Virus genome (UHGV): UHGV-1967114
Length of the DNA: 35,477 bases
Strand: one strand, 5' to 3'
DNA from: a virus
Part shown: piece by piece, positions 1 to 35,477 of the stretch
Layout: the number at the start of each line of letters is the position of its first letter
How positions within the stretch are numbered: the stretch's first letter is position 1
Program-made: the position numbers and the translations under genes
The notes under the pieces: model-generated
What the model saw: the letters and a program-made list of their open reading frames with translations, nothing else
Database searches by the model: none
What the model was told of the DNA's origin: nothing

Positions 1-263
1 CTGAAGCGTTGACCCAGGGCGAAACAGTTGCTGAAGCGATGGAAGCGGCAAAAGATGCTTTACTGACCGCATTTGATTTTTATTTTGAAGATAATGAGCT
101 AATCCCGTTGCCTTCGCCATTAACTAACAACGATCACTTTATTGAAGTACCTTTGAGCGTCGCCTCTAAAGTATTGCTGTTAAATGCTTTTTTACAGTCA
201 GAAATCACTCAGCAAGAGTTAGCCAGGCGAATTGGCAACCCGAATGTAGTCAACCCAAAATAA
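1..263 (+). CDS. hicB: HicB-family antitoxin, 5' portion of a gene interrupted by prophage insertion (truncated by window start); ORF now ends in 8 phage-derived codons (NPNVVNPK) then stop
   Basis: In-frame translation ...TQGETVAEAMEAAKDALLTAFDFYFEDNELIPLPSP...SEITQQELARRIG matches my recollection of E. coli HicB N-domain plus first half of an XRE-type HTH; second half of the HTH is found at 35268..35381 on the same strand. Confidence 0.75.
   Translation, partial: EALTQGETVAEAMEAAKDALLTAFDFYFEDNELIPLPSPLTNNDHFIEVPLSVASKVLLLNAFLQSEITQQELARRIGNPNVVNPK
231..246. other. attL junction: host ATTGGC - AA - phage CCCGAATG; putative 2-bp crossover AA at 237-238
   Basis: hicB reading frame diverges immediately after codon GGC-AA; compare attR at 35261..35276 where hicB frame resumes after AA. 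Confidence 0.55.
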
Positions 264-2830: not shown

Positions 2831-2857
2831 GGGACTCTTCGGAGTCCCTTTTTTATT
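2831..2857 (+). terminator. Intrinsic terminator (GGGACTC-TTCG-GAGTCCC + T6)
   Basis: Perfect 7-bp stem, UUCG loop, TTTTTTATT; overlaps 3' end of minus-strand gene 2853..3794. Confidence 0.6.
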
Positions 2858-3794
2858 GGCAGTAAGAAAAGTTAGTACCGTACATTTCATCATGAAGCAT
2901 TGCAGCATTGCGTTTCTGTTCTTCTTCCTCGTCTACCGCATCACTAGAAAAATGAGATTTGCCCTTAAAAGAACGAAGCAATTGCAGTGCAGCCATCGGA
3001 TCACGCATCACATCGATTTTCACTTCTACTTCATCATTTGCGGCCTCATCAGCCGCATTTTCAACTACTGCCACCGGAGCAACTTCTTTAGCTTTCAGTT
3101 CTTCAATTTCAGCTTTCTGGGCTTCGATAATCTGGTCTTTTTCTTCCAGTGCAGCTTTCAGTTCTGCGATCTGTGCTTCCAGTGCAGCAAAGCGATCTTC
3201 TACAACAGGAGAAACAGCATTAACCTGTGCTTCCAGTTCCAGAAATGCTTCGCAAGATTCAATACGTTCTTTCTCTTCACCTTCATAAGCAACCAGTTCT
3301 ACAACTTCTTTTTCGGTAGCGTGGCTGTTAAAGAATACAGCAAAGTAAGGATTGCCGGATTTAGTGAAGTTCAGTTTAGCTTTTCCGGTAACTTCTTTAC
3401 GACGACCGAAGGTGATCTGGCAATCAGCGGTATCCTGAAAATCCATGTTAGGAGCGGAAACGATAGCAGTATCACCAGCAATAACCAGGTGGAACAGTTC
3501 AGAAGAGTTCTTAACGGTAAAGGTAACGATGTGGTCTACTGCAACGTCTTTAGCTGGTTTAACGCGGTCGATTGCTTTACGAATGCCGTTAGGCAGTTTA
3601 CCGTCAACACCAAAGCCAGCCGCGATCAGTGCTTCACGATGTGCTTTAAAGCCAGCGAAAGCGGATTTCTGCTGCGCAAAGGAAACATGAGCAACAACTT
3701 TCGGCTGAATCTTCTTGTTTGCTTCGGTGCCAAATTTGATAACTGCTTTAGCGTTGGTTACTTCGTTAGTGAAAAAGTTAGCGGAAAATAACAT
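2853..3794 (-). CDS. Hypothetical early protein with central coiled coil (AALEAQIAELKAALEEKDQIIEAQKAEIEELKAKE) and acidic region; function unknown
   Basis: 313-aa ORF with normal amino-acid composition; overlapping plus-strand ORFs are low-complexity and rejected. Confidence 0.6.
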   Translation of the reverse strand: MLFSANFFTNEVTNAKAVIKFGTEANKKIQPKVVAHVSFAQQKSAFAGFKAHREALIAAGFGVDGKLPNGIRKAIDRVKPAKDVAVDHIVTFTVKNSSELFHLVIAGDTAIVSAPNMDFQDTADCQITFGRRKEVTGKAKLNFTKSGNPYFAVFFNSHATEKEVVELVAYEGEEKERIESCEAFLELEAQVNAVSPVVEDRFAALEAQIAELKAALEEKDQIIEAQKAEIEELKAKEVAPVAVVENAADEAANDEVEVKIDVMRDPMAALQLLRSFKGKSHFSSDAVDEEEEQKRNAAMLHDEMYGTNFSYCQ

Positions 3795-3840
3795 TATAAA
3801 TACTCCTGTGGAAAGTTAGTTTTAATTGTTCATCGCAAAA

Positions 3841-3875
3841 GCCTCCTTGTTGCCGCAAGGGGGCTTTTTTATTTT
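3841..3875. terminator. Intrinsic terminator, possibly bidirectional (GCCTCCTTG...CAAGGGGGC + T6, A4 on other side)
   Basis: 9-bp stem with one wobble, 6-nt loop, T-run on plus side and short A-run upstream. Confidence 0.55.
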
Positions 3876-3906: not shown

Positions 3907-4089
3907 TCAGTAAACCTCTGCGGTTATCTTTACTTTAATGTCATACTTCTTTAAGAGTTTGTGGAAGGTTGATTGATCAATACCTTCACCTTTAAACCAT
4001 TCACCAATCACTACATCAGGCGTCAGTTCAAAATAACGCTTTGCCATTTCTAAAACGATTTCACGAGTGAACTTAACAGGTCGTGCCAT
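3907..4089 (-). CDS. Small putative DNA-binding protein (60 aa), member of a 3-gene paralog family sharing motif F.RE...[FY]..LKKY.IKV
   Basis: Strong RBS AGGAGG 8 nt upstream; shared motif with 7207..7467 and both halves of 7470..8045. Confidence 0.55.
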   Translation of the reverse strand: MARPVKFTREIVLEMAKRYFELTPDVVIGEWFKGEGIDQSTFHKLLKKYDIKVKITAEVY

Positions 4090-4124
4090 CTTGAATCCTC
4101 CTAAATCTGGATTAATTATTTCTT

Positions 4125-4147
4125 AAAAAAAAGAGCGTTAACCGCTC
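4125..4147 (-). terminator. Possible leader terminator/attenuator upstream of 3907..4089 (minus strand GAGCG-GTTAA-CGCTC + T8)
   Basis: Short 5-bp stem but followed by 8 consecutive T on minus strand, located between candidate promoter and the gene RBS. Confidence 0.3.
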
Positions 4148-4606
4148 ATTGTTATTTATACGGGGATTGTTTTTTAATTTTTCAACCCCTCACATTTATC
4201 TCTTATATATGTATTTATAACAGAGATATGTTAAAATGTTATTCAGATGTTATCAGGCGTGTTAAATGTGTTAAACCACAGCACGAATTGCTAAAGCGAA
4301 GAACGCGATTTAACCAAATTGATGTATATTTAATCAATTTAGAAAAATGCATAGCACTTTTTGCTAAAGCGGTGAGTATTAATTGAGCTATGAATTGTAA
4401 AGATTTGTTACAGGATTTTCTCTCAGATCCAAACCTTAACAGACATATAACAATTTAACAGGATAATAACAATAGGAAGGAAAATCGGTAAATTTTTACT
4501 TTCAATACAAATATTATAACATATTTATCTCGAATTGTCAATTATACCACTGTTCCTACACAGTGTCAACAAAGGACTTTCAAACCTACACTAGCCCTAC
4601 ACTATG

Positions 4607-4785
4607 AAAATTGCCCCTGAACCAAAATCCCCTAGATTTCACATCCCATTTTTGCCCCTGAAACCCACTATTTTTGCCCCTGAAATTCTGGGAAACAGTG
4701 ATTTTGCCCCTCATTTTTGCCCCTGAAATGCCAATAATTGCCCCTGAAAATCTAATTTTTGCCCCTGAAATTTGCCCCCGAAAAG
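4607..4785 (+). repeat. Array of 8 direct repeats, consensus TTTTTGCCCCTGAAA, spacing 13-41 bp, in a 1.37-kb non-coding region; candidate iterons / protein-binding array
   Basis: Copies at about 4611, 4652, 4674, 4704(variant CTCA), 4717, 4738, 4759, 4772(variant CCCCCGA), all same orientation. Confidence 0.8.
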
Positions 4786-5458
4786 GATTGGTAAGAAAAA
4801 CTCTTTATAAAACATTAAGTTAGTGAGGGCAAAAACGGGGAATTGGGCGTGCATAGATATTATATAACACATTCGCTACGCTCATGTGTAAAACCAAAAA
4901 CAACAAATAACCAAAAAGATATTAGGAGGGCGTAGCCCGACTGCGCGAAGCGCTAACCAATTACTTCTAGTAACACTAATTTAAACTAGATGATACTAGA
5001 TGGTCTTAGAAGGAATTAACTAGTTTGCTCGCTCGCTTCGCTCACTCTCAAACGTCTGCGACGCCACTGCGTGGCATCGAGAATCACTTCTGAAAGGATT
5101 TTCTTGAAAGGGATTTTAAACTAGTTACTAACTGATTCTAGTAAACGAACGAAGTGAGTAACAATCACTTTCTAGAAAGGTATTGGTATCCCTTCGGGAT
5201 TGCAACCTTCGGTTGCTAAATTTCTTCCTGATTATTATTTCTTCAAAAGAAAGATTCTTATATTCTAAAGATACTTCTTCGTTTTGGTGATGATTTAATC
5301 AAAATCTATGAAGGAGGGCTTTAGCCCGACTGAATCCAATCACCTTTCAAGTACAGACCAGTTTTGGACTCTACCAGATCACTCTTTTCATAATAACAAG
5401 AATTTTCTCTTTATAAATAATATTAGATTGATTCACTTTCTTTTAGAGGATTTCCACT

Positions 5459-5926
5459 ATGAACCATAAAATGACTACCACTACTCCTTTTATCCTTCTG
5501 GGTCTGGATTCTGATAGCTTCCACAATGACAAGTTAATGAAGATGTTCCGTGAACGTGGTTATAACATCCTTTTCAACTCTGATGAATCCCATTTCTCTA
5601 GTGCATGGTATGCGTTTTGCCGTAATAAGAAGCCGACCATTGTTGTTAACGTCTTCACCGATGAAGAACGCTTAAAGTACCAGAATCTACCAGCAATTAT
5701 TGTTCGTGATGATCTGCCGTTTCAAGTCCGTTCCGGTGACATTGATCTGGGTAGCTTCGTTACTGTCTATGAACTGGATGAAGCAATGTTTAACTACGGT
5801 AAAGAAACCGCTCAGGAAGCCCCAGAAGAAGATGAACAAGACGAAGATGACGACGACTACGCACCAATCTGTTTTTCTTCTCAGAATGGCTTCTACGGTT
5901 ACGACGAAGGCTTAGATATGCTGTAA
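5459..5926 (+). CDS. Hypothetical early protein with highly acidic C-terminus (EEDEQDEDDDDY)
   Basis: 155-aa ORF, RBS AGAGGA; acidic tail. Confidence 0.6.
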   Translation: MNHKMTTTTPFILLGLDSDSFHNDKLMKMFRERGYNILFNSDESHFSSAWYAFCRNKKPTIVVNVFTDEERLKYQNLPAIIVRDDLPFQVRSGDIDLGSFVTVYELDEAMFNYGKETAQEAPEEDEQDEDDDDYAPICFSSQNGFYGYDEGLDML

Positions 5927-5948: not shown

Positions 5949-5990
5949 TTGTCAAGGGGTATTGACAAAAATTTCTAACTTTTTTATGAT
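5949..5990 (+). promoter_or_regulatory. Sigma70-like promoter (TTGACA 5962-5967, 17-bp spacer, TATGAT 5985-5990) overlapped by inverted repeat TTGTCAA-N6-TTGACAA (5949-5968); candidate operator
   Basis: Near-consensus -35/-10 with optimal spacing; palindromic half-sites; third TTGACAA copy at 5999-6005. Confidence 0.5.
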
Positions 5991-6048
5991 TATCGCACTT
6001 GACAACTATGAATCTATTTGACCTAGATTTGTAAATGGAATGTTAATT

Positions 6049-7127: not shown

Positions 7128-7135
7128 TAATTTTT

Positions 7136-7164
7136 GCCCCTGAATTTCAGGGGCTTTTTGTTTT
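7136..7164 (+). terminator. Intrinsic terminator built from one copy of the TTTTTGCCCCTGAA motif paired with its inverted partner (GCCCCTG-AATTT-CAGGGGC + T-run)
   Basis: 7-bp GC stem, 5-nt loop, TTTTTGTTTT immediately downstream of stop at 7127. Confidence 0.65.
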
Positions 7165-7206: not shown

Positions 7207-7467
7207 TCAAACTCCGTTGATTGGTACAACCTCTCCACCGTCTACACGTATAAAGAACTCGACATTAAGTTTCTTCATACTTTTATAAAACTGGGCGGTG
7301 GAGATGCCCAGATCGTTTAATACTTTCTCTCTGCTTTCTTTACCCTTGCCAGCTTTGTAAAACTCGTAGCAAATGTATGCCAGTTGTTCACGATTAAAAC
7401 GGGCAGGACGACCGCGAGTAGCTTTAGTAGTCATAGTCATTTTCTCCAAATTAAAGTGAATGTTCAC
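7207..7467 (-). CDS. Small putative DNA-binding protein (86 aa), paralog of 3907..4089
   Basis: Shared motif ...FYKSMKKLNVEFFIRVDGGE.. with the C-terminal half of 7470..8045. Confidence 0.55.
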   Translation of the reverse strand: MNIHFNLEKMTMTTKATRGRPARFNREQLAYICYEFYKAGKGKESREKVLNDLGISTAQFYKSMKKLNVEFFIRVDGGEVVPINGV

Positions 7468-7469
7468 CT

Positions 7470-8045
7470 TTATTTAGAGGACTTAGATTTTATAGGAAAA
7501 AGTTCTCCATCGTCAACTGACATAAAGAACTCAACCTTAATCCCGTACTTCTTCAACCGTGAATAATATGTACCCCGACTTATATCAACCTTGCGAAGCA
7601 CTTCAAAGAAGGACTTAGGATCGTTGTAATAGTGGCTGTACTTCACGTTAGCGAGTTCAACGAATAGTTCTCTTGTATCACCATAGTCTTTCTTAAAAGC
7701 CACGTTACGATAGCGTGTAATGGCATGATTCAATCTCTTCTGTTTAAGCACTTCCCTGATCGGTGTCCACTGCAACCGATAGATAGGACCGTCATCTACT
7801 CGATAGAATCGCTTAATGTCAAAATCAAACCACTCACGGACTCGCTGAAACTCTGTCTGTGATGTGCGATGCTTCTTAAAGAAGTTATGAATATCGGTAT
7901 ACCCATTATCACGATACAACTCGATTAAAATCTGTTTAGCTTCCTCACGACTAAAGCCAGATGTTGTGTAGTCGGTCTTTAAGTGCTTATGTTTTACTGG
8001 CAAACGATATTCATGATCGGTACAAGACAAGACAAGACAAGACAA
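7470..8045 (-). CDS. Protein with tandem duplication of the same HTH-like module (191 aa); start codon uncertain (only TTG candidates, inside the pentanucleotide repeat)
   Basis: Two internal copies of the family motif ending VDDG; no in-frame ATG near 5' end. Confidence 0.45.
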   Translation of the reverse strand: MSCLVLSCTDHEYRLPVKHKHLKTDYTTSGFSREEAKQILIELYRDNGYTDIHNFFKKHRTSQTEFQRVREWFDFDIKRFYRVDDGPIYRLQWTPIREVLKQKRLNHAITRYRNVAFKKDYGDTRELFVELANVKYSHYYNDPKSFFEVLRKVDISRGTYYSRLKKYGIKVEFFMSVDDGELFPIKSKSSK

Positions 8046-8185: not shown

Positions 8186-10099
8186 ATGAAACTGATTTCT
8201 AATAAGGCCAAATTAAAAAAGATTCTCAGAAATGCAGCCAAATATATTACGCCACCGCCTAAACTCCTTCCTTCTGAATGGTGCGAAGCGAATCTAACGC
8301 TAGTCGATGGTCCTCGTGCTGGGGATAAAGTTAAATTACTGTCATTTCAGAAAGGCATGATTGATGCTCCTTTCCTTGAGAAGAAAAAGAAGTACGTTTT
8401 TTGTACGAGTGCGCAGATCGGAAAGACGACCATCATGTCAGGGATCATGTTTAACCAGATGGCAAACGATCCGTGCAATATCATTATCGGGCAAAGTACC
8501 GCTAAAGAAGTGGCTATGTACTTGAATACTAAGATCCGTCCTTCTATTGAAGCATGTCCGGCATTACAGGAAGTGGTAACAGATAAGAATGATCGTAATG
8601 CGGTAAACAACAATAACCAGATTCAGCTAAAAACAAACCATTTCCTTTACATGGTTTCTTTGACCAGTCCTTCAAGTTTGCGTGGGCGTACTGCCAAGTT
8701 AGGGATTGTAGACGAATGCGACGCAGCAACAATCACCGAAGAAGGTTGTCCGGTGGCACTAACTGCAAACCGTTTAACTACCTTTGGTGATGAAGCTCGA
8801 TTGATTGTTTCTAGTACCCCAACCAATAAGCTGGGAATCATTAACCAGCAATGGTTATCAAGTGATATGCGTATGTTTTTTGTTCCGTGTCCTCATTGCG
8901 GGGAACACCAGGTGATCGAGTGGGAAAACGTTCAATTTGAATGGCGTAACATCGATGGTAAGAACTTACCCGATCCTGATACCGCTCGTTATATTTGCCC
9001 CCACTGTAAGCAATCATGGACAGAAGGGGAACGAATCAGGGCAGTAGCGCAAGGCGAGTGGAGAGCAACCCGTGAAAGTGAAGTAGCAGGATTCTGGATC
9101 AGCCGTCTGTATTCACCTTTCAGTAGTATCCGCGCTTGTGTGGTTGATTTTAGTCATGCGTGGCAATCCTTTGATTTACAATCATTTTATAACACAGTGT
9201 TAGGTAAGGTATACGACGATCAGGACACGGCAGTAGAAGCAAATGAACTGGAACAACTCAAAACAGATGTTTCTATCGAGAATATCCCTGATGACGTGAT
9301 TTTCTTGTGTGCGGGTACTGACCAGCAATTAGATCGCGCAGAAACTACGATCATGGGCGTGGCAAAGGATAAGATTTATATTCTGGATCATCGCAGCTTT
9401 TACGACCATAACTGTGAACGATATGAATCTCCTGTATGGGACAGATTAATCAACTTCCATAAAACCAAATTTACTACTGTATCGGGTGATCGTGTTCCTA
9501 TGCTCGCCAGCTTCCTTGATACATCGAACGGTCGATTCACTCAAGCCGGATACCGTATTTGCGGTGGTAAGTGGAAGAACTTACACGCAATCAAAGGTAG
9601 TTCATCTGGTACTGCTCCAATCATTCCGGTGAAACCAACTACCACGGGTGGTCATGAATTGCTTATGTTGGGCGTTAACGTGGGTAAAACGGCTATTCGT
9701 GAGCTATTAACACGCAACTTGAAAGAAAACCCTCATATTGGTTTAGAGATATCAGAAACCGTTCCTGATGATTATCTCGATCAGCTTTTGAGTGAATCCA
9801 TCAAGCGTACTGTTACTGGAACACGTTGGGTAAAAAATCCAGGTGCGACACGAAACGAGGCGCTCGACTGTCTGGTTTATAGCTATGCGGCTTCTCGCTA
9901 TGTTCTTTCAAAAATGTCATGGGATAAGCTCATTGCAATGAAAGAAAAGCTGAATCGTGAACCAGAAGCAACCGTAGAAGCTCCTAAATCACATTCTAAC
10001 GAGCAAATCGAAGAAACTAAGCCAATCACTCATCACAAACCTAATCGTCGTCCTATGGCGCGTCCTGTGCGTCGTGGTGGGTGGGTAAATAACTTTTAA
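8186..10099 (+). CDS. Terminase large subunit (lambda gpA-like ATPase/nuclease)
   Basis: 637 aa; Walker A-like SAQIGKTT and Walker B LGIVDECD; CPHCGEH...CPHCKQ motif; position upstream of portal. Confidence 0.85.
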
Positions 10100-10170
10100 T
10101 TGATGCCGTCCTTCGGGGCGGCTTGCTCCTAAATATTGTTAATCCAATAACAATTAAATAAGGGGTAATT

Positions 10171-10665
10171 ATGAGTTTAGAACTAATTCCCTTAGTAATT
10201 CGTAAAGGCGAAAAAATCACGCTGGCGAATGAAGAGGGTGTAACAATTCAGGTAGGAAATAGTAAAGGTATCATTTATCAGGTTGATGACACTCCGGCTA
10301 ATCATGAGATTAAAACCTTAGATTTTGCCGAAGGTAAATATACCATCGTAACCACTTTGGAAAATGAACTGGTATCAATGCAGGAATTAACTGTTTTACC
10401 AGTATTCGCCAAACAATCCAAAAAAGAATATCTGCGGGAAACTATCGCCACCATAGAGCAAGTTATTTTCGCCAGGCTATCTGGAGACGAAGCCGCATTA
10501 TCTGCAATGACCGTGAAAGGGAATACTTTCGCCTATGAGTCATTAGGTGTTCTCCAGCAATTAAAGACTGATTATGAACGTCAGTTATCTAAACTAATTC
10601 AAGCCGAACGACGTAAACAGGGAATTAGCCCGATTAAAAATATCAAATTACGTCTTACGCGATAA
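10171..10665 (+). CDS. Hypothetical head-module protein between terminase and portal
   Basis: 164-aa ORF with RBS AAGGGGTAA; position only. Confidence 0.5.
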   Translation: MSLELIPLVIRKGEKITLANEEGVTIQVGNSKGIIYQVDDTPANHEIKTLDFAEGKYTIVTTLENELVSMQELTVLPVFAKQSKKEYLRETIATIEQVIFARLSGDEAALSAMTVKGNTFAYESLGVLQQLKTDYERQLSKLIQAERRKQGISPIKNIKLRLTR

Positions 10666-19000: not shown

Positions 19001-19644
19001 GCGGGTCTGATAAAGGTTTGATTCGTGGTAATGTTGCTGGTGGTAGCTGGGCTAGCTGGCGTGATCGTTCTGCCGGAATCCTCGTAGACTGTCCGAACTC
19101 AACCGATTCCGCTCATAACATCTGGAAAGCGACTCATTGGGGAAAATATCATATTGCGGCAATGGGTGTGCATGTTCCTAGTGGTACTATTACCAATGCT
19201 TTAGCTCGCCTAAACGTTCACGACGCCAACTTTGACTTTAACGCTGCGGGTGATTTTAGCGCAGGTCGTAACGGTAGCTTTAACGATGTTTACATTCGCT
19301 CTGACTCCCGTTTGAAGATTAACAAGGAAGAATTACAGGACGGTGCATTAGAGAAAGTAAACTCACTGAAAGTCTACACCTACGATAAAGTTAAATCTCT
19401 TTCCGATGACACGGTGATTAAACGCGAAGTAGGTATTATTGCTCAGGATCTGGAAAAAGTATTGCCGGAAGCAGTAGGTATTCAATCCACAGAAGATCCA
19501 GAACAACCGGAAGCAATCAAGACTATTTCTAACTCTGCTGTTAATGCCTTGATTATTAAAGCTATGCAGGAAATGGACGCCAAATATAAAACACAGATCG
19601 AAGCATTACAGAAAGAAATTGCCGAACTGAAAGCAACTAAATAA
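16042..19644 (+). CDS. Tail fiber protein (1200 aa) with N-terminal repetitive shaft and C-terminal intramolecular chaperone (peptidase S74-like) domain
   Basis: Repeats TVTANKTDADTKI...; C-terminal YIRSDSRLKINKEELQ...LKVYTYDK matches endosialidase-type chaperone signature (recollection). Confidence 0.75.
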   Translation: MQSIQFKRTQTAGKKPTPEQLQVGEIAIQMADHVIYTKDKNNAVVQISVSPESHNALNTKVDNNKTSTDRVIASNKQEAANNLASAKAELNQTITTKDTATNKRIDATNTTVSNLTQTVTANKTDADTKINNLTGTVSANKTAIERTVAANKSDADSKHAALTKTVTDNNTAINNKVNTTNTNVSNLTKTVTANKTDADNKISSLTSTVAANKTAIEKTVSDNKKDADTKITNLTGTVNSNHTAINNKVDQNKSSTDAAIAAANKRIDGIEGSNDALYIKKNTNTKHGGYLLSKTANYLEDQTSRDLNYFGAFRTNGQDGLMDLTLNVPHSSGKAHGRGFTFRYASGGSRVETYGFDREGQKNFSYKMYHEGDKPTPGEIGAYTKAEVDKMFVKNVVMSVPNSSENVSAYFKLATATIPQNGRSVFFRIHGGNGYNVTAYDQVDVVEILLRSGNDRPKGLNVIAYRRNTNKDFEVFAVNTSGDNYDIYVKYQRYTDNVIVEYGKSVYVSLTVYDTPEATLIKPSVGVIGGRNVTLFNTENKRGVLSFDDNTQNSYDIVHLSNDKGTGRKYIRKFRSNYNEMVWHETVQGAVYRLATGATDSTEVIRIDSNSAIPGNYKGYVITGKMELHGSGNAMTLHRQTGQAAYMAWWDRRDGKNQRSGYIGHADGTSDGFVWRNDVGANSFDLEGSGQVNLTTGKTKIVYTNGQYYSANADAFRMIYGKYGAFWRNDGGKVYLLSTAENDRFGGWNTYRPFIYDLTSGNVQLGGDGNEDVLTLERASKAARFSGNAYIKGQHLTFDAGAGQSRDYFRFNHWGDSNNARDNILQIEDSQGAHFTTERAMGTGNITARFKGFVRVESGEIAFDANRGSASQFTLHTWGNEQRKQVFECKDATSYHWYTERTNGGTGPILFSVAGTLKTASNIQVGGADIEFRRSGNKHLWFRDPNGLELGLMYCDDAGVIRFRGQKQGQTWKLADKMIHLEAGTVGGSDKGLIRGNVAGGSWASWRDRSAGILVDCPNSTDSAHNIWKATHWGKYHIAAMGVHVPSGTITNALARLNVHDANFDFNAAGDFSAGRNGSFNDVYIRSDSRLKINKEELQDGALEKVNSLKVYTYDKVKSLSDDTVIKREVGIIAQDLEKVLPEAVGIQSTEDPEQPEAIKTISNSAVNALIIKAMQEMDAKYKTQIEALQKEIAELKATK
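16366..16797 (+). repeat. In-gene tandem coding repeats (two ~216-nt units with ~33-nt subrepeats) in tail fiber shaft
   Basis: Near-identical stretch ACTGTTACTGCAAATAAAACCGATGC at ~16390 and ~16611; explains spurious minus ORF 16314..16862. Confidence 0.6.
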
Positions 19645-31779: not shown

Positions 31780-32052
31780 CTATGATTTATTTTCTTGTTC
31801 TATGAAAATCTTTCTCACCTCATCAGAATAAATGTCTAGTGATTCCTCATAACATTTTCTGTATTCACCGTAATTACTGGTGGTCTTTTGACATAGCAAT
31901 TTCAATGTTTTATGTGCTCCATCAATGAAAGCATCTTCTCTATAGGTTAGCGGTCTACGCATTTCTTGGTCTACGGTTGCCAATGCCAGGCAAGAATTCA
32001 TAGATAAAATCAAACCTAAAATCTTAATCATCTTCATTAGCTTAAATTCCAA
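31780..32052 (-). CDS. Small secreted protein (signal peptide MKMIKILGLILSMNSCLALA), Cys-containing
   Basis: Hydrophobic N-terminus with ALA cleavage-like site; overlaps 3' end of recombinase gene. Confidence 0.5.
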   Translation of the reverse strand: MEFKLMKMIKILGLILSMNSCLALATVDQEMRRPLTYREDAFIDGAHKTLKLLCQKTTSNYGEYRKCYEESLDIYSDEVRKIFIEQENKS

Positions 32053-33721
32053 ATTCCTGTAATGGACCTGGTATTTCTTCTTCTGGTTTCCAGTTCTTAT
32101 CTGTCAGCATGTCTAAACATGGATGCAGAACAAGCCCGTTACTCTCCAGAATCTGCCTATCATTGATAGTCTTCAAATCAATGAAGATCCGGCCTTTCCT
32201 CGGTCCTCTTGAATTTTCTATTACAACTCTCTGGGTCTTGCCATCGATGTATTCCAATACAAACAAGTTTTTGTACTTGTCAATCCTGCTACACCCGATC
32301 CGTTTTAGAGCTTGCTTAATCTTAAACCGGACCTTAATGCGATCCTCGTTGTAAACATCTTCTAAATCAAATTCTGCGAGCTTCTCCCAGCCTTGAGAGT
32401 CAACAGAATACATTTCCTCTTCTGCCATCTTAATTTGATTGTAGAGTGTTTCACGCTCGCTATTGAGGGTAGTAATCTGATCGGCTAGCTCCTTCGTTGC
32501 TCCTGTCATAGCAGAAAGGGTAATCAGGTTATCAATCTTGCGTGATATTTCATCAATCTGTACTTTCAAAGCCGGAACCGGATTAGCCTTATCTTCAGCA
32601 ATCCAGATTTTATCAGCCAGCAATTGCAATACAGCTTTCTCTAATTGGTCGCCGCGAAAACTCCAGTTTGTATGCACACATTCAATACGACTAGAGCGCA
32701 TTGCATCGCATGAATAACGATATTGGTTAGGCCGTCTGTTTGTTCCTTTCACCTTAACCATAGCGGAACCGCAATGTTCACATTTCAATAGACCAACACC
32801 ACTAAGCAAGGGAATAGGTTTAACTTCTTCTTTGTCTCCAAAGTTACATGCTCTAACACCAATGCTTTTCTTAAGGTGATAAAACTCAGCGTCATCTAGC
32901 ACACGAGGATAATAATCCTTTAACTCATACTTAACGCCATCTACAGAGATTTCCTTGATACCAATCAAAGCGCGGGTATGGAACAACCTTTCAATCATTG
33001 CCCGTGACCAGTTTGAATGCCTCTTGTGACTTGCGGCTGGTGGTGGTGTGTATGTCGCGTTAAGGTGATCCAGTATCTCGGCGGTTGACCGTCCATTCCT
33101 GCGTAATTCCACAACTTCCTGAACAATAGGGAAGAAGACCGGATGAGGAAGCACATAACCAGATGTGGTATCAGTCCACCACATATTCTTTCCAATTTCC
33201 TCGATTGCAACAGCCGGATTTTGTGGATTTTCTTGATGAGCTTTAATCTTAATCAGTGCGCTTGAGTTAGTACGATTGCGCTTAGTCTGGCTTTCCTCAT
33301 TACCACGGATGAATAAAAGGATGGAGAACATCAGGTCCATCGGGTTAGCGGTAACAGTATCCAGCGAGTAGATCTTGTTATCCATGCCAGTAACAATGGT
33401 TATCCCCCTACGGATGATTGAAAGGAATAACTCCTGCGCACTGACAATATCGGCACGGGATAAACGGTCCAAGTTTTCGATGAATAGCCAGCTACCAACA
33501 GGAACGGATCTACCTATTGCATCAAGGAAACGAGATAGCGCCCCTGTTTTGGAGTTAGCACCCTTAAACGCAGATACACCCAGATCCTGATAATCATTTA
33601 CCAGTTCAAGGTCATACTTTACCGCAATCTCTCTAGCCATCCTGATTTGTCGTTCATAACTCGAACCATCATTCTGACGCATAGACGAGAAGCGAATATA
33701 CGAATACAGTTTAGTTTTCAT
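32042..33721 (-). CDS. Large serine recombinase (probable prophage integrase); start taken at ATG 33721
   Basis: N-terminal resolvase-type motif YIRFSSMRQ (catalytic Ser), central recombinase region, zinc-ribbon CEHCGSAMVKV...YRYSCD...IECVH; 559 aa. Confidence 0.85.
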   Translation of the reverse strand: MKTKLYSYIRFSSMRQNDGSSYERQIRMAREIAVKYDLELVNDYQDLGVSAFKGANSKTGALSRFLDAIGRSVPVGSWLFIENLDRLSRADIVSAQELFLSIIRRGITIVTGMDNKIYSLDTVTANPMDLMFSILLFIRGNEESQTKRNRTNSSALIKIKAHQENPQNPAVAIEEIGKNMWWTDTTSGYVLPHPVFFPIVQEVVELRRNGRSTAEILDHLNATYTPPPAASHKRHSNWSRAMIERLFHTRALIGIKEISVDGVKYELKDYYPRVLDDAEFYHLKKSIGVRACNFGDKEEVKPIPLLSGVGLLKCEHCGSAMVKVKGTNRRPNQYRYSCDAMRSSRIECVHTNWSFRGDQLEKAVLQLLADKIWIAEDKANPVPALKVQIDEISRKIDNLITLSAMTGATKELADQITTLNSERETLYNQIKMAEEEMYSVDSQGWEKLAEFDLEDVYNEDRIKVRFKIKQALKRIGCSRIDKYKNLFVLEYIDGKTQRVVIENSRGPRKGRIFIDLKTINDRQILESNGLVLHPCLDMLTDKNWKPEEEIPGPLQEFGI

Positions 33722-33730
33722 ACCATTTCC

Positions 33731-33770
33731 AAACAAAAACGCCCCTACCGCGTATTATAACGATAGGGGC
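33731..33770 (-). terminator. Terminator-like hairpin between secreted-protein gene and recombinase gene (minus strand)
   Basis: GCCCCTA...TAGGGGC stem with 16-nt loop, followed on minus strand by GTTTTTGTTT. Confidence 0.45.
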
Positions 33771-35267: not shown

Positions 35268-35381
<114 letters not shown>

Positions 35382-35459
35382 TTACAGTTAACGAAAAGTT
35401 GTCATTTTTAACAACTGATATAGACTGCCGAATCATCTGCACATAATTACGATTCGATA

Positions 35460-35477
35460 ATGAAAAAATACCAGCAG
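35460..35477 (+). CDS. Start of a downstream host gene (partial, MKKYQQ...)
   Basis: ATG at 35460 at window edge; only 6 codons visible. Confidence 0.25.

What the first reader, a model, noticed from the sequence alone, without database searches (positions are those of the whole stretch)
4090..5458. 1.37-kb non-coding region with several repeat families and UUCG hairpins
No ORF of 60 aa or more lies on either strand. It contains an AT-rich segment (4150-4560) with an 11-bp direct repeat TTGCTAAAGCG at 4288 and 4359, a cluster of CTAG-containing motifs (TTTAAACTAG twice, 4980 and 5117), two copies of GGAGGGC-N-TAGCCCGACTG (4926 and 5313), and tandem UUCG-loop hairpins (ATCCC-TTCG-GGGAT, GCAACC-TTCG-GTTGC at ~5180-5215). 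CTAG is generally avoided in enterobacterial genomes, so its clustering suggests a function. This could be an origin, a regulatory hub or a structured non-coding RNA.
Basis: seen in the sequence. Interest (0 to 1): 0.5.

Follow-up and report, generated by a model that had tools for sequence, protein, structure and literature searches.

The report
Prophage control region with swappable iterons
The 1.37-kb gene-free stretch is the central control region of an unstudied E. coli prophage; its core is an array of repeated protein-binding sites that always travels with one matching, completely uncharacterised phage protein, which most likely marks the phage's replication origin.

Summary
The window is a complete ~35-kb prophage inserted in hicB. 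The gap at 4090-5458 lies between two divergently oriented early operons. It is kept as a 1.2-1.5-kb gap in 58 of 5,426 E. coli genomes.

- **Iterons.** Seven direct repeats TTTTGCCCCTGAA lie at 4609-4782, spaced 21-22 bp.
- **Promoters.** Two tandem perfect sigma-70 promoters face left at 4569-4513. They read through the AT-rich segment to an intrinsic terminator just before the first leftward gene.

Relatives carry three unrelated repeat types at the same spot. Repeat type matches the type of the leftward ~313-340-aa coiled-coil protein in 42 of 42 informative loci. The alleles of three other genes tested in all loci assort freely. That protein has no detectable relative of known function.

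The right half is a conserved block of short GC hairpins kept by compensatory changes. It also holds a second repeat that explains part of the CTAG cluster, and a stem-loop/promoter cassette shared with RB49-like T4 phages.

Best reading: an iteron-type origin embedded in the early control region (~0.45). The rivals are an operator array and regulatory RNAs. There is no Rfam match, and no homology assigns a function to the matching protein.

The parts
2853..3794 (-). Gene of the 313-aa protein (p313). It has a variable N-terminal domain, a coiled coil and an acidic C-terminal part. It is the cognate partner of the type-A iterons.
3907..4089 (-). First leftward gene, p60. It is a 60-aa protein with a domain also found in p86 and twice in p191.
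   Evidence: Its alleles assort independently of iteron type.
4125..4147 (-). Intrinsic terminator t1 for leftward transcripts, 45 nt before the p60 start. On the minus strand it reads GAGCGGTTAACGCTC followed by T8.
   Evidence: It is kept in both leader types and in L050 with a different loop and stem length.
4150..4512 (-). AT-rich leader (28.7% GC) transcribed leftward from P1/P2. It contains the hairpin GGGGUUG...CAAUCCCC (4162-4189) and two similar hairpins UAGCA-N5-UGCUA.
   Evidence: (z = -4.1). No compensatory changes. The segment is only 45% identical to L050.
4513..4569 (-). Two tandem perfect sigma-70 promoters, each TTGACA-17-TATAAT with an upstream TG. P1 has its -35 at 4569-4564 and its -10 at 4546-4541. 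P2 has its -35 at 4541-4536 and its -10 at 4518-4513.
   Evidence: 12/12 each. Near-consensus leftward promoters occupy this position in relatives.
4585..4604 (+). Two copies of the type-B iteron core CCTACACTA at the left edge of the array. Probably a recombination relic.
   Evidence: Absent from type-A loci that carry the other leader type.
4609..4782 (+). Type-A iteron array: seven same-orientation copies of (A/T)(A/T)TTGCCCCTGAA, with start-to-start spacing 41, 22, 43, 21, 21 and 13 bp. A partial copy lies at about 4703-4712 and a partial inverted copy at 4827-4840.
   Evidence: Copy number ranges from 4 to 12 in relatives. L050 has 7 x TTTTTGCCCCT.
4873..5084 (.). Type-linked hairpin block. 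H1 is GGGC-GTA-GCCC (4928-4938). H2 is GCGC-GAA-GCGC (4943-4953). H3 is GACGCCAC-TGC-GTGGCATC (5060-5078). TCGCTWCGCTCA occurs at 4873 and 5033.
   Evidence: The wider block 4920-5190, which extends past this part, is 75% identical to L050. H1 and H3 are kept by compensatory changes.
5004..5190 (+). Three copies of a type-independent box, TCTWGAAAGGNATT(G/T)(G/A), with cores at 5009, 5107 and 5176. They sit inside the CTAG cluster (4967-5175).
   Evidence: AAGGNATT occurs six times on this strand in 35 kb, three of them here. The same boxes are found in types A and B and in L050. Type C (L017) shows two, one with a variant upstream part.
5188..5216 (+). Two adjacent hairpins, ATCCC-UUC-GGGAU and GCAACC-UUC-GGUUGC. 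They act as the stem-loop part of a PeSL-like cassette and are a probable terminator or insulator.
   Evidence: Other GC hairpins replace them at the same place in L050, L071 and L084.
5228..5315 (+). AT-rich stretch homologous to intergenic stem-loop/early-promoter cassettes (PeSL) of RB49-like T4 phages. The -35 is TTGGTG. The aligned -10 (TATGAA) is degenerate.
   Evidence: PMC2839356. 94-99% identical among E. coli relatives.
5312..5332 (+). Second copy of AGGAGG-hairpin-GACTG (H6).
   Evidence: Seven stem/loop variants all keep the stem, including GGGC/GCCC changed to TGGC/GCCA. 5306-5335 is 90% identical to L050.
5393..5458 (+). Candidate rightward promoter (ATAACA-17-AATAAT) and the 5' UTR and ribosome-binding site of the 155-aa gene.
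   Evidence: 9/12. 78-98% conserved.

Best explanation
The gap is the divergent early control region of a temperate phage, built around an iteron-type specificity module that most likely serves as the replication origin.

**Shown**
- Seven phased direct repeats sit next to two consensus leftward promoters and a ~400-bp AT-rich stretch.
- Three unrelated repeat types occupy the same position in related prophages. Each type is always accompanied by its own version of the leftward ~313-340-aa protein.
- That protein's N-terminal ~170 aa differ between types. The coiled-coil and acidic architecture is shared.
- About 300 bp to the right of the repeats also changes with the type.

**Inferred**
- The N-terminal domain of p313 binds the repeats on one face of the helix and oligomerises through its coiled coil.
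- Together with transcription from P1/P2 into the AT-rich DNA, it opens the duplex and recruits host replication proteins. The phage encodes no recognisable helicase, primase or loader.
- The short GC hairpins to the right are either single-strand priming or structural signals, or transcription punctuation.
- The conserved far-right part (boxes, twin hairpins, PeSL-like cassette, AGGAGG-hairpin-GACTG) insulates and drives the rightward early operon. It probably carries the binding sites of a regulator common to all types.
For: - **Repeats are real.** 8 matches against 0.53 expected, all in one orientation, spaced 21-22 bp. Types B and C are also phased at 11/22 bp.
- **Perfect association with the adjacent protein.** Repeat type matches protein type in 21 A, 19 B and 2 C loci with no exception. 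Alleles of p60, p155 and the TerS-like gene, which lie between or beside them, assort freely in all 47 loci; in the first 18 loci Rha and p86 did too, and p191 is 88-94% identical across types A and B.
- **Copy number varies** from 4 to 12 among near-identical phages. Origins tolerate this better than promoter-linked operators do.
- **A distant relative keeps the arrangement.** In L050 the protein is 50% identical. It has the same synteny, seven TTTTTGCCCCT repeats and the same hairpins with compensatory changes. Block 4920-5190 is 75% identical, while TerL is 56% and p155 is 37% identical in amino acids.
- **Flanking origin-like features.** The AT-rich flank is 28.7% GC. Two 12/12 promoters read into it.
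- **SOS control in relatives.** Relatives carrying the same p313 (99% identical) have three LexA-box-like sites between the promoters and the p60-p313 operon. This argues that the operon is induced rather than a maintenance function.
- **No other replication gene.** Pfam and PHROG scans of the early and right-end genes, the terminase and two tail genes found no replication protein.
Against: - No binding or replication experiment exists.
- p313 resembles no known initiator or any known protein. The structure model is weak (pLDDT 58).
- No DnaA box or IHF consensus lies in the region.
- The promoters separate the AT-rich stretch from the repeats, and that stretch is poorly conserved in L050 (45%). 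A conserved unwinding element is therefore not demonstrated.
- Repressor-operator modules show the same kind of covariation.
- Two terminators precede p313 (4133-4147 and 3837-3868), so its expression route is unclear.
- The LexA argument rests on predicted boxes in relatives. The window itself has none.
Confidence: 0.45

Rival explanations
1. Operator array of an immunity or early regulator. In this reading p313 is a repressor or activator. It coats the direct repeats just upstream of P1/P2 and controls the two divergent early operons. The three types are hetero-immune classes, as in lambdoid or P2-like phages.
For: - Protein-site covariation is equally typical of immunity modules.
- The array starts about 40 bp upstream of the -35 of P1.
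- The coiled coil would allow cooperative oligomers.
- No CI-like repressor was recognised elsewhere.
- From my own knowledge, not tested here: the P2 C repressor uses direct repeats 22 bp apart.
Against: - The repeats do not overlap any -35 or -10 element.
- Copy number and array length vary from 4 to 12.
- In relatives the p313 operon lies behind LexA-like boxes, and in all loci behind terminators. This does not fit a protein needed constantly in the lysogen.
- A type-independent box family and a conserved family of small proteins (p60, p86, p191) are available as the common regulatory system.
Confidence: 0.25
2. The main products are regulatory RNAs. One candidate is a ~380-410-nt leader RNA from P1/P2 that ends at t1. 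It would work as premature-termination or antitermination control in the manner of P4, N15 or lambda nut. The other candidate is a hairpin-rich RNA from the right half.
For: - Consensus promoters are followed by a leader and a conserved terminator just before the first gene.
- Both halves fold better than shuffles: z = -4.1, -4.4 and -4.3.
- The hairpin UAGCA-N5-UGCUA occurs twice in the leader, and one copy is kept in the other leader type.
- H1, H3 and H6 are kept by compensatory changes. H3 carries a G.U pair on the minus strand only.
Against: - No Rfam family matches, even at E <= 10.
- 0 of 116 predicted leader pairs show a compensatory change, and the covariation term is unfavourable.
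- The leader is the least conserved part against L050 (45%).
- Folding scores are the same on both strands, so they do not show transcription.
- No clear promoter feeds the right half on the + strand.
- An RNA does not explain the protein-linked repeat types.
Confidence: 0.2
3. Packaging site. In this reading the repeats are terminase small-subunit binding sites (cosB or pac-like) for the gpA-type terminase.
For: - The large terminase is lambda gpA-like, which implies a cos site somewhere.
- The TerS-like gene (1588-2142) and TerL (8186-10099) lie on either side of this region.
Against: - TerS-like alleles do not follow the repeat type. Alleles 96-100% identical to the window's occur with type-B repeats.
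- The region sits between divergent early promoters.
Confidence: 0.05

Closest known systems
Iteron-type replication origins (lambda ori with O protein; P1 oriR with RepA; pSC101 and R6K; RSF1010 oriV with ssiA/ssiB)
   Same: - Several same-orientation repeats phased at about two helical turns.
- An AT-rich flank.
- A specificity protein encoded next door, whose DNA-binding part changes together with the repeats while the rest of the protein is kept.
- GC palindromes beside the repeats.
   Different: - The protein has no similarity to Rep_3, RepA, lambda O or any other known family.
- No DnaA boxes.
- The repeats lie outside the gene and are separated from it by another gene and a 400-nt leader.
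- Replication has not been shown.
Promoter-plus-unwinding-element origins (T7 primary origin; T4 oriF/oriG; ColE1 RNA II). Recalled from knowledge, not tested.
   Same: Tandem strong promoters read directly into a long AT-rich stretch.
   Different: The transcript here ends at a conventional terminator. Nothing shows an R-loop or primer processing. No RNAI or RNAII family was hit in Rfam.
PeSL cassettes (promoter-early stem-loops) of RB49, phi1 and JSE T4-type phages (PMC2839356)
   Same: - A stem-loop followed by AT-rich DNA and a -35 element, in an intergenic position upstream of an orphan gene.
- Direct sequence similarity of 75-80% over about 80 bp to 59 phage records, with E down to 4e-8.
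- It sits at a mosaic junction, as PeSLs do.
   Different: - The host element is a temperate siphovirus-like prophage.
- The -10 aligned with JSE's TATATT is TATGAA or CATGAA, so promoter activity is doubtful.
- The stem-loops differ in sequence.
Leader-terminator control of early operons (lambda nutL/N; P4 CI RNA; N15 CA RNA). Recalled from knowledge.
   Same: A strong promoter, a leader of several hundred nucleotides with repeated small hairpins, and a terminator before the first gene.
   Different: There is no arginine-rich N-like protein, no convincing boxA, no Rfam match and no covariation in the leader.

Membership tests
Iteron-type replication origin | Three or more direct repeats in one orientation with helical phasing | tested here: met
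   Seven copies spaced 21-22 bp or multiples, plus one 13-bp step. 8 matches against 0.53 expected. Types B and C are phased at 11/22 bp.
Iteron-type replication origin | Cognate sequence-specific initiator encoded nearby | tested here: inconclusive
   A cognate protein is strongly indicated by 42/42 covariation. Nothing shows that it is an initiator. It has no similarity to any Rep family.
Iteron-type replication origin | Adjacent AT-rich unwinding region | tested here: inconclusive
   4150-4560 is 28.7% GC. It is poorly conserved in L050 (45%) and is separated from the repeats by promoters.
Iteron-type replication origin | Host-factor sites (DnaA boxes, IHF) | tested here: not met
   No TTATCCACA within one mismatch and no IHF consensus. 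One relaxed DnaA-like match lies at 4885. This feature is not universal among phage origins.
Iteron-type replication origin | Supports autonomous replication when the initiator is supplied | not testable with these tools
   Needs a cloning and replication assay or marker-frequency data.
PeSL cassette of RB49-type phages | Stable stem-loop in an intergenic region | tested here: met
   Hairpins at 5188-5216. Other GC hairpins replace them in L050, L071 and L084.
PeSL cassette of RB49-type phages | Consensus sigma-70 early promoter with an AT-rich upstream region | tested here: inconclusive
   The AT-rich region and the -35 (TTGGTG or TTGATG) align with JSE's TTGGTT-17-TATATT. The -10 here is TATGAA or CATGAA and did not pass the promoter scan.
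PeSL cassette of RB49-type phages | Sequence similarity to PeSLs of RB49, JSE or phi1 | tested here: met
   59 phage records, all RB49-like, 75-80% over about 80 bp, in unannotated intergenic DNA, 1-3 places per genome.
Known structured RNA families (Rfam 15) | Covariance-model match at or near the gathering score | tested here: not met
   No match at gathering score. The best E-value hits lie far below threshold and are terminator-like or eukaryotic snoRNA models.
Lambda-type nut / processive antitermination site | boxA plus boxB hairpin downstream of an early promoter, and an N-like arginine-rich protein | tested here: inconclusive
   Two 5-bp hairpins with 5-nt loops, each preceded by CGCUUU. 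No N-like protein was found. No covariation.
LexA (SOS) operator | CTGT-N8-ACAG box at a promoter | tested here: not met
   None in the window. Three boxes occur in the alternative leader type of relatives, for example TGCTGTATGAATTAACAGTG.
cos/pac terminase recognition site | Repeats covary with the small terminase subunit | tested here: not met
   TerS-like alleles are independent of repeat type.

The most novel reading that the evidence does not exclude
p313 and its type-B and type-C counterparts are a new family of sequence-specific origin-binding initiators with exchangeable N-terminal specificity domains. With them, a 35-kb temperate phage would replicate with no helicase, primase or loader of its own.

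The neighbouring short hairpins all carry a C-GNA-G triloop. H1 and H2 have it on the + strand; H3, H4 and H5 have it on the - strand. In this reading they would act as single-strand priming signals on the two strands.
Probability: 0.2. Interest if true: 0.7.

Novelty: new variant of a known kind. Interest (0 to 1): 0.45.

Why it matters
This prophage family is present in about 1% of complete E. coli genomes, and no isolated phage resembles it. Its whole early region consists of orphan genes.

The repeat-protein covariation gives a direct, cheap entry point. It names one protein, its probable DNA site and three natural specificity variants that can be swapped. If the module is the origin, it defines a new initiator family and shows how such a phage borrows the host replisome. 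If it is an immunity module, it defines a new repressor class.

The stem-loop/promoter cassette shared with lytic RB49-like phages also documents exchange of regulatory DNA between temperate and T4-type phages.

Tried and rejected
**Searches that found nothing**
- Rfam at gathering and at E <= 10: nothing.
- Megablast of the region against phages, and blastn against plasmids: nothing.
- Representative-genome collection, searched by TerL and by a DNA motif: only chance hits in unrelated phyla.
- A metagenome motif scan gave the same three repeat types plus two useful variants, L071 and L084.

**p313**
- The 5.8-billion-protein word search returned only near-identical E. coli and Shigella hypotheticals.
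- The full HMMER scan of 1.8 billion representatives found three full-length clusters.

**Coding potential**
- Rejected for four ORFs because relatives carry frameshifts or stop codons: the 35-aa ORF (5183-5290), the 53-aa ORF (5308-5469), the 37-aa ORF (4239-4352, minus strand) and the 53-aa ORF (4711-4872, minus strand).
- Left open for the 52-aa ORF at 4228-4386 on the + strand.

**Other ideas rejected or unsupported**
- The extra TTGCCCCTGAA at 7134 is not a distal iteron. It is half of a terminator hairpin after the Rha gene and is present in all types.
- No DnaA or IHF sites.
- Direct repeats shared between the leader and the right half (D6, D7, D12, D16) are at chance level for AT-rich DNA by my estimate.
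- Literature search for the repeat sequences found only unrelated primer sequences.
Full report
**Context**

The window is identical to a stretch of the chromosome of E. coli strain PI7. That stretch carries a complete ~35.1-kb prophage inserted in hicB. The two halves of hicB lie at about window 1-242 and 35375-35477.

The prophage has these recognisable genes:
- a large serine recombinase (32042-33736, minus strand);
- a lambda gpA-type large terminase (8186-10099);
- portal, capsid and gpJ-like tail genes;
- a lysis module.

No isolated phage is close. The best TerL match is 43% identical.

The finding's region is the gap between two divergent early operons:
- leftward: a 60-aa gene (p60, 3907-4089), then a 313-aa gene (p313, 2853-3794);
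- rightward: a 155-aa gene (p155, 5459-5926), a 51-aa gene and a Rha-family gene.

A gap of 1.2-1.5 kb is kept at this position in 58 of 5,426 complete E. coli genomes, always on the chromosome.

**Check of the observation**

Confirmed:
- No ORF of 60 aa or more lies in the region.
- The AT-rich segment is real: 28.7% GC at 4150-4560 against 41.4% for the window.
- The three two-copy repeats are present, two of them 2 nt from the stated positions.
- The CTAG cluster is real. Seven lie in 4960-5180, the densest 220 nt of the window, against about 0.4 expected from the window-wide rate.

Corrected:
- The 'UUCG hairpins' are written with one G too many. The sequence gives a 5-bp stem (5188-5200) and a 6-bp stem (5202-5216), each with a UUC triloop.

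Missed:
- Seven same-orientation copies of TTTTGCCCCTGAA at 4609-4782, spaced mostly 21-22 bp. The window has 8 matches against 0.53 expected, and no shuffle reached 8.
- Two tandem perfect sigma-70 promoters on the minus strand (TTGACA-17-TATAAT, each with an upstream TG) at 4569-4541 and 4541-4513.
- An intrinsic terminator for leftward transcripts at 4147-4133 followed by T8, only 45 nt before the p60 start.

**The repeats and their partner protein**

I fetched 18 related E. coli loci, 28 viral contigs and 22 metagenome hits. At the same position they carry one of three unrelated repeat families:

| Type | Repeat | Copies and phasing |
|---|---|---|
| A | TTGCCCCTGAA | 4-12 copies, 21-22 bp |
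| B | AAACCTACACTA | about 5-9 copies, mostly 11/22-bp phasing |
| C | TCCCCG(Y) | 13-16 copies, about 11-bp period |

The repeat type predicts the leftward protein beyond p60 without exception:
- 21 of 21 type-A loci encode p313 (91-100% identical);
- 19 of 19 type-B loci encode an unrelated-looking 333-aa protein plus an 80-aa one;
- both informative type-C loci encode a 340-aa protein.

Alleles of p60, p155 and the TerS-like gene do not follow the repeat type in any of the 47 loci. In the first 18 loci Rha and p86 did not either, and p191 is 88-94% identical across types A and B. This holds even though p60 and the 400-nt leader lie physically between the repeats and the p313 gene.

The three proteins share an architecture. 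Each has a divergent N-terminal ~170 aa, then a coiled coil, then an acidic stretch. Types A and B also share a C-terminal motif, LHDxxYxTNxS.

About 300 bp to the right of the repeats (to about 5084) also differs by type.

The association survives recombination on both sides, so a mismatch is probably not viable. I take this as strong evidence that the protein's N-terminal domain reads the repeats.

**What p313 is**

No search assigned a function:
- no Pfam or PHROG family;
- no PDB sequence match;
- no match in 50,697 phage or 72,556 plasmid records;
- only three full-length clusters among 1.8 billion representative proteins;

One distant homologue (50% identical) could be placed on a contig, L050. 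That contig has the same gene order. Its gap contains seven copies of TTTTTGCCCCT, the same terminator before p60, and the same hairpins.

**The right half**

From 4873 to 5335 there is a fixed order of short elements:
- H1: GGGC-GTA-GCCC followed by GACTG;
- H2: GCGC-GAA-GCGC;
- a first box;
- TCGCTTCGCTCA;
- H3: GACGCCAC-TGC-GTGGCATC;
- two more boxes, interspersed with CTAG-containing sequence;
- the twin hairpins H4 and H5;
- an AT-rich stretch;
- a second AGGAGG-hairpin-GACTG (H6).

Stems are kept while their sequence changes:
- H1 is GGCC/GGCC in L050 and ACGGC/GCCGT in type B.
- H3 is GACGTCCC/GGGACATC in L050, with two compensatory pairs. It keeps one C.A mismatch on the + strand, which is a G.U pair on the minus strand.
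- H4/H5 are replaced by GACGCTC-N4-GAGCGTC in L084, by GACGCTC-N3-GAGCGTC in L071, and by AAGGGC-TAAA-GCCCTT in L050.
- H6 has seven variants that all keep the stem, including TGGC/GCCA.

Block 4920-5190 is 75% identical between the window and L050, and 5306-5335 is 90% identical. Over the same distance TerL is 56% and p155 is 37% identical in amino acids. This DNA is therefore under constraint.

Folding energies are better than shuffles, but equally so on both strands. They do not tell RNA from DNA structure.

By inspection, H1-H5 each have a C-GNA-G triloop on one strand: H1 and H2 on the + strand, H3-H5 on the minus strand. I record this as an observation. Its meaning is not established.

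The box TCTWGAAAGGNATT occurs three times here. AAGGNATT occurs only six times on this strand in 35 kb. The boxes are present in types A and B and in L050. Type C (L017) shows two, one with a variant upstream part. The boxes account for part of the CTAG excess.

**The PeSL-like cassette**

Among E. coli relatives the most conserved part of the whole gap is 5170-5310, at 94-99% identity. The neighbouring p155 alleles can be only 57-65% identical.

Positions 5228-5309 match unannotated intergenic DNA of 59 RB49-like T4 phages at 75-80% identity, with E down to 4e-8 and one to three places per genome. In phage JSE the aligned stretch follows two stem-loops and contains TTGGTT-17-TATATT, 48 nt before a small orphan gene. 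That is the layout described for PeSL cassettes: stem-loop terminator, AT-rich region and early promoter, which act as recombination junctions (PMC2839356).

In the prophage the -35 is kept, but the aligned -10 is TATGAA or CATGAA. I regard it as PeSL-derived, with doubtful promoter activity. A moderate promoter candidate for p155 lies at 5393-5421.

**The left half**

P1 and P2 would start leftward transcripts near 4534 and 4506. These run through the AT-rich leader to the terminator at about 4125.

- The leader folds better than shuffles (z = -4.1).
- Across seven relatives, none of 116 predicted pairs shows a compensatory change.
- It is the least conserved part against L050 (45%).
One copy is kept in an alternative leader type.

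That alternative leader (L010-L020) has its own near-consensus promoters and three LexA-box-like sites, for example TGCTGTATGAATTAACAGTG. It occurs together with the same p313 (99% identical) in L010 and L011 (97% in L012). This suggests that the p60-p313 operon is an induced function, not a lysogen-maintenance function.

A second strong hairpin terminator lies between p60 and p313 (3837-3868).

**Interpretation**

I consider it well supported (about 0.85) that the repeats are specific binding sites of p313-family proteins.

What the complex does is inferred. I favour a replication origin at about 0.45, for these reasons:
- the repeats are phased, in one orientation and variable in number;
- they do not overlap promoter elements;
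- they adjoin an AT-rich stretch that is transcribed from very strong promoters;
- the specificity protein changes its N-terminal domain with the repeats, as lambdoid O proteins do;
- its operon appears SOS-controlled in relatives;
- no other gene scanned looks like a replication gene.

Against this reading:
- the protein matches no initiator;
- there are no DnaA boxes;
- the AT-rich stretch is not conserved at distance;
- immunity modules covary in the same way.

The main rival is an operator array (about 0.25). A mainly RNA-based function is about 0.2 and is not exclusive. A packaging site is unlikely, because the TerS-like gene does not covary.

**Novelty**

The kind of feature is known: iterons with a cognate protein inside a divergent phage control region. 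What is new:
- a protein family without relatives of known function;
- three naturally swapped specificities;
- a conserved hairpin block linked to the type;
- a regulatory cassette shared with lytic T4-type phages.

Noticed in passing
window 1-242 and 35375-35477; 32042-33736 (-): The window holds a whole prophage inserted in the antitoxin gene hicB. The gene is split into two annotated fragments. A 564-aa large serine recombinase lies near the right end.
   Followed up: partly
window ~859-1229 and up to ~19476-19575: Besides the PeSL-like stretch, the prophage shares DNA at 80-84% identity with RB49-like T4 phages (Krischvirus). The matched places in those records lie in the gp37 distal tail fibre region and neighbouring hypothetical genes. 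A temperate phage and lytic T4-type phages have evidently exchanged DNA.
   Followed up: no
window 8186-10212: In strain PI7, RefSeq annotates the large terminase as a pseudogene (frameshifted, internal stop). The window has a 637-aa ORF ending at 10099. This copy of the prophage may be defective.
   Followed up: no
window 4228-4386 (+): A 52-aa basic ORF lies inside the AT-rich leader, antisense to the P1/P2 transcript. It is intact in 20 homologues. Variable sites split 11 synonymous to 11 non-synonymous, and 7:4:11 by codon position. It is possibly a real small gene. It has a weak ribosome-binding site and is absent from the other leader type.
   Followed up: partly
window 3837-3868: A 14-bp-stem hairpin with T runs lies between the p60 stop and the p313 start. 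It is a strong terminator on the + strand and a weaker one for the leftward operon.
   Followed up: no
window 5950-5991: A near-consensus rightward promoter, TTGACA-17-TATGAT, lies between p155 and the 51-aa gene. Its -35 is part of the palindrome TTGTCAA-N6-TTGACAA. A similar TTGACA-N2-TGTCAA palindrome overlaps the main leftward promoter in the alternative leader type. This is a possible operator.
   Followed up: no
window 3907-4089, 7207-7467, 7470-8045 (all -): p60, p86 and both halves of p191 share one ~55-aa domain with the motif IS..TYY..LKKY.IKV. p191 is the most conserved early protein, at 88-94% across types A and B. It is a candidate common regulator for the type-independent boxes.
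   Followed up: partly
window 7130-7160: The terminator after the Rha gene reads TTTTTGCCCCTGAATTTCAGGGGCTTTTTG. One arm is identical to the type-A iteron. It is present in all three types, so it is not a covarying distal site.
   Followed up: yes
L010-L020, gap positions 101-223: Relatives with the alternative leader carry three LexA-box-like sequences (for example CACTGTATATCCGATCAGTG and TGCTGTATGAATTAACAGTG) between the leftward promoters and p60. The window's leader has none.
   Followed up: partly
L013 1117-2376; L017 329-2380; P0123, P0127: Most p313-family and accompanying proteins end in small non-polar tails (...YAYAA...LDFAA...RRAA...LKAA...LRIVA...LRLVA) that resemble ssrA-like degradation tags. 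The window's p313 ends ...FSYCQ.
   Followed up: no
L013 ~1152 and ~2165 (-) and equivalents in all type-B loci: Two further copies of the type-B repeat, within one mismatch, lie inside the coding sequences of the type-B 333-aa and 80-aa genes. No such internal copy was seen for type A.
   Followed up: no
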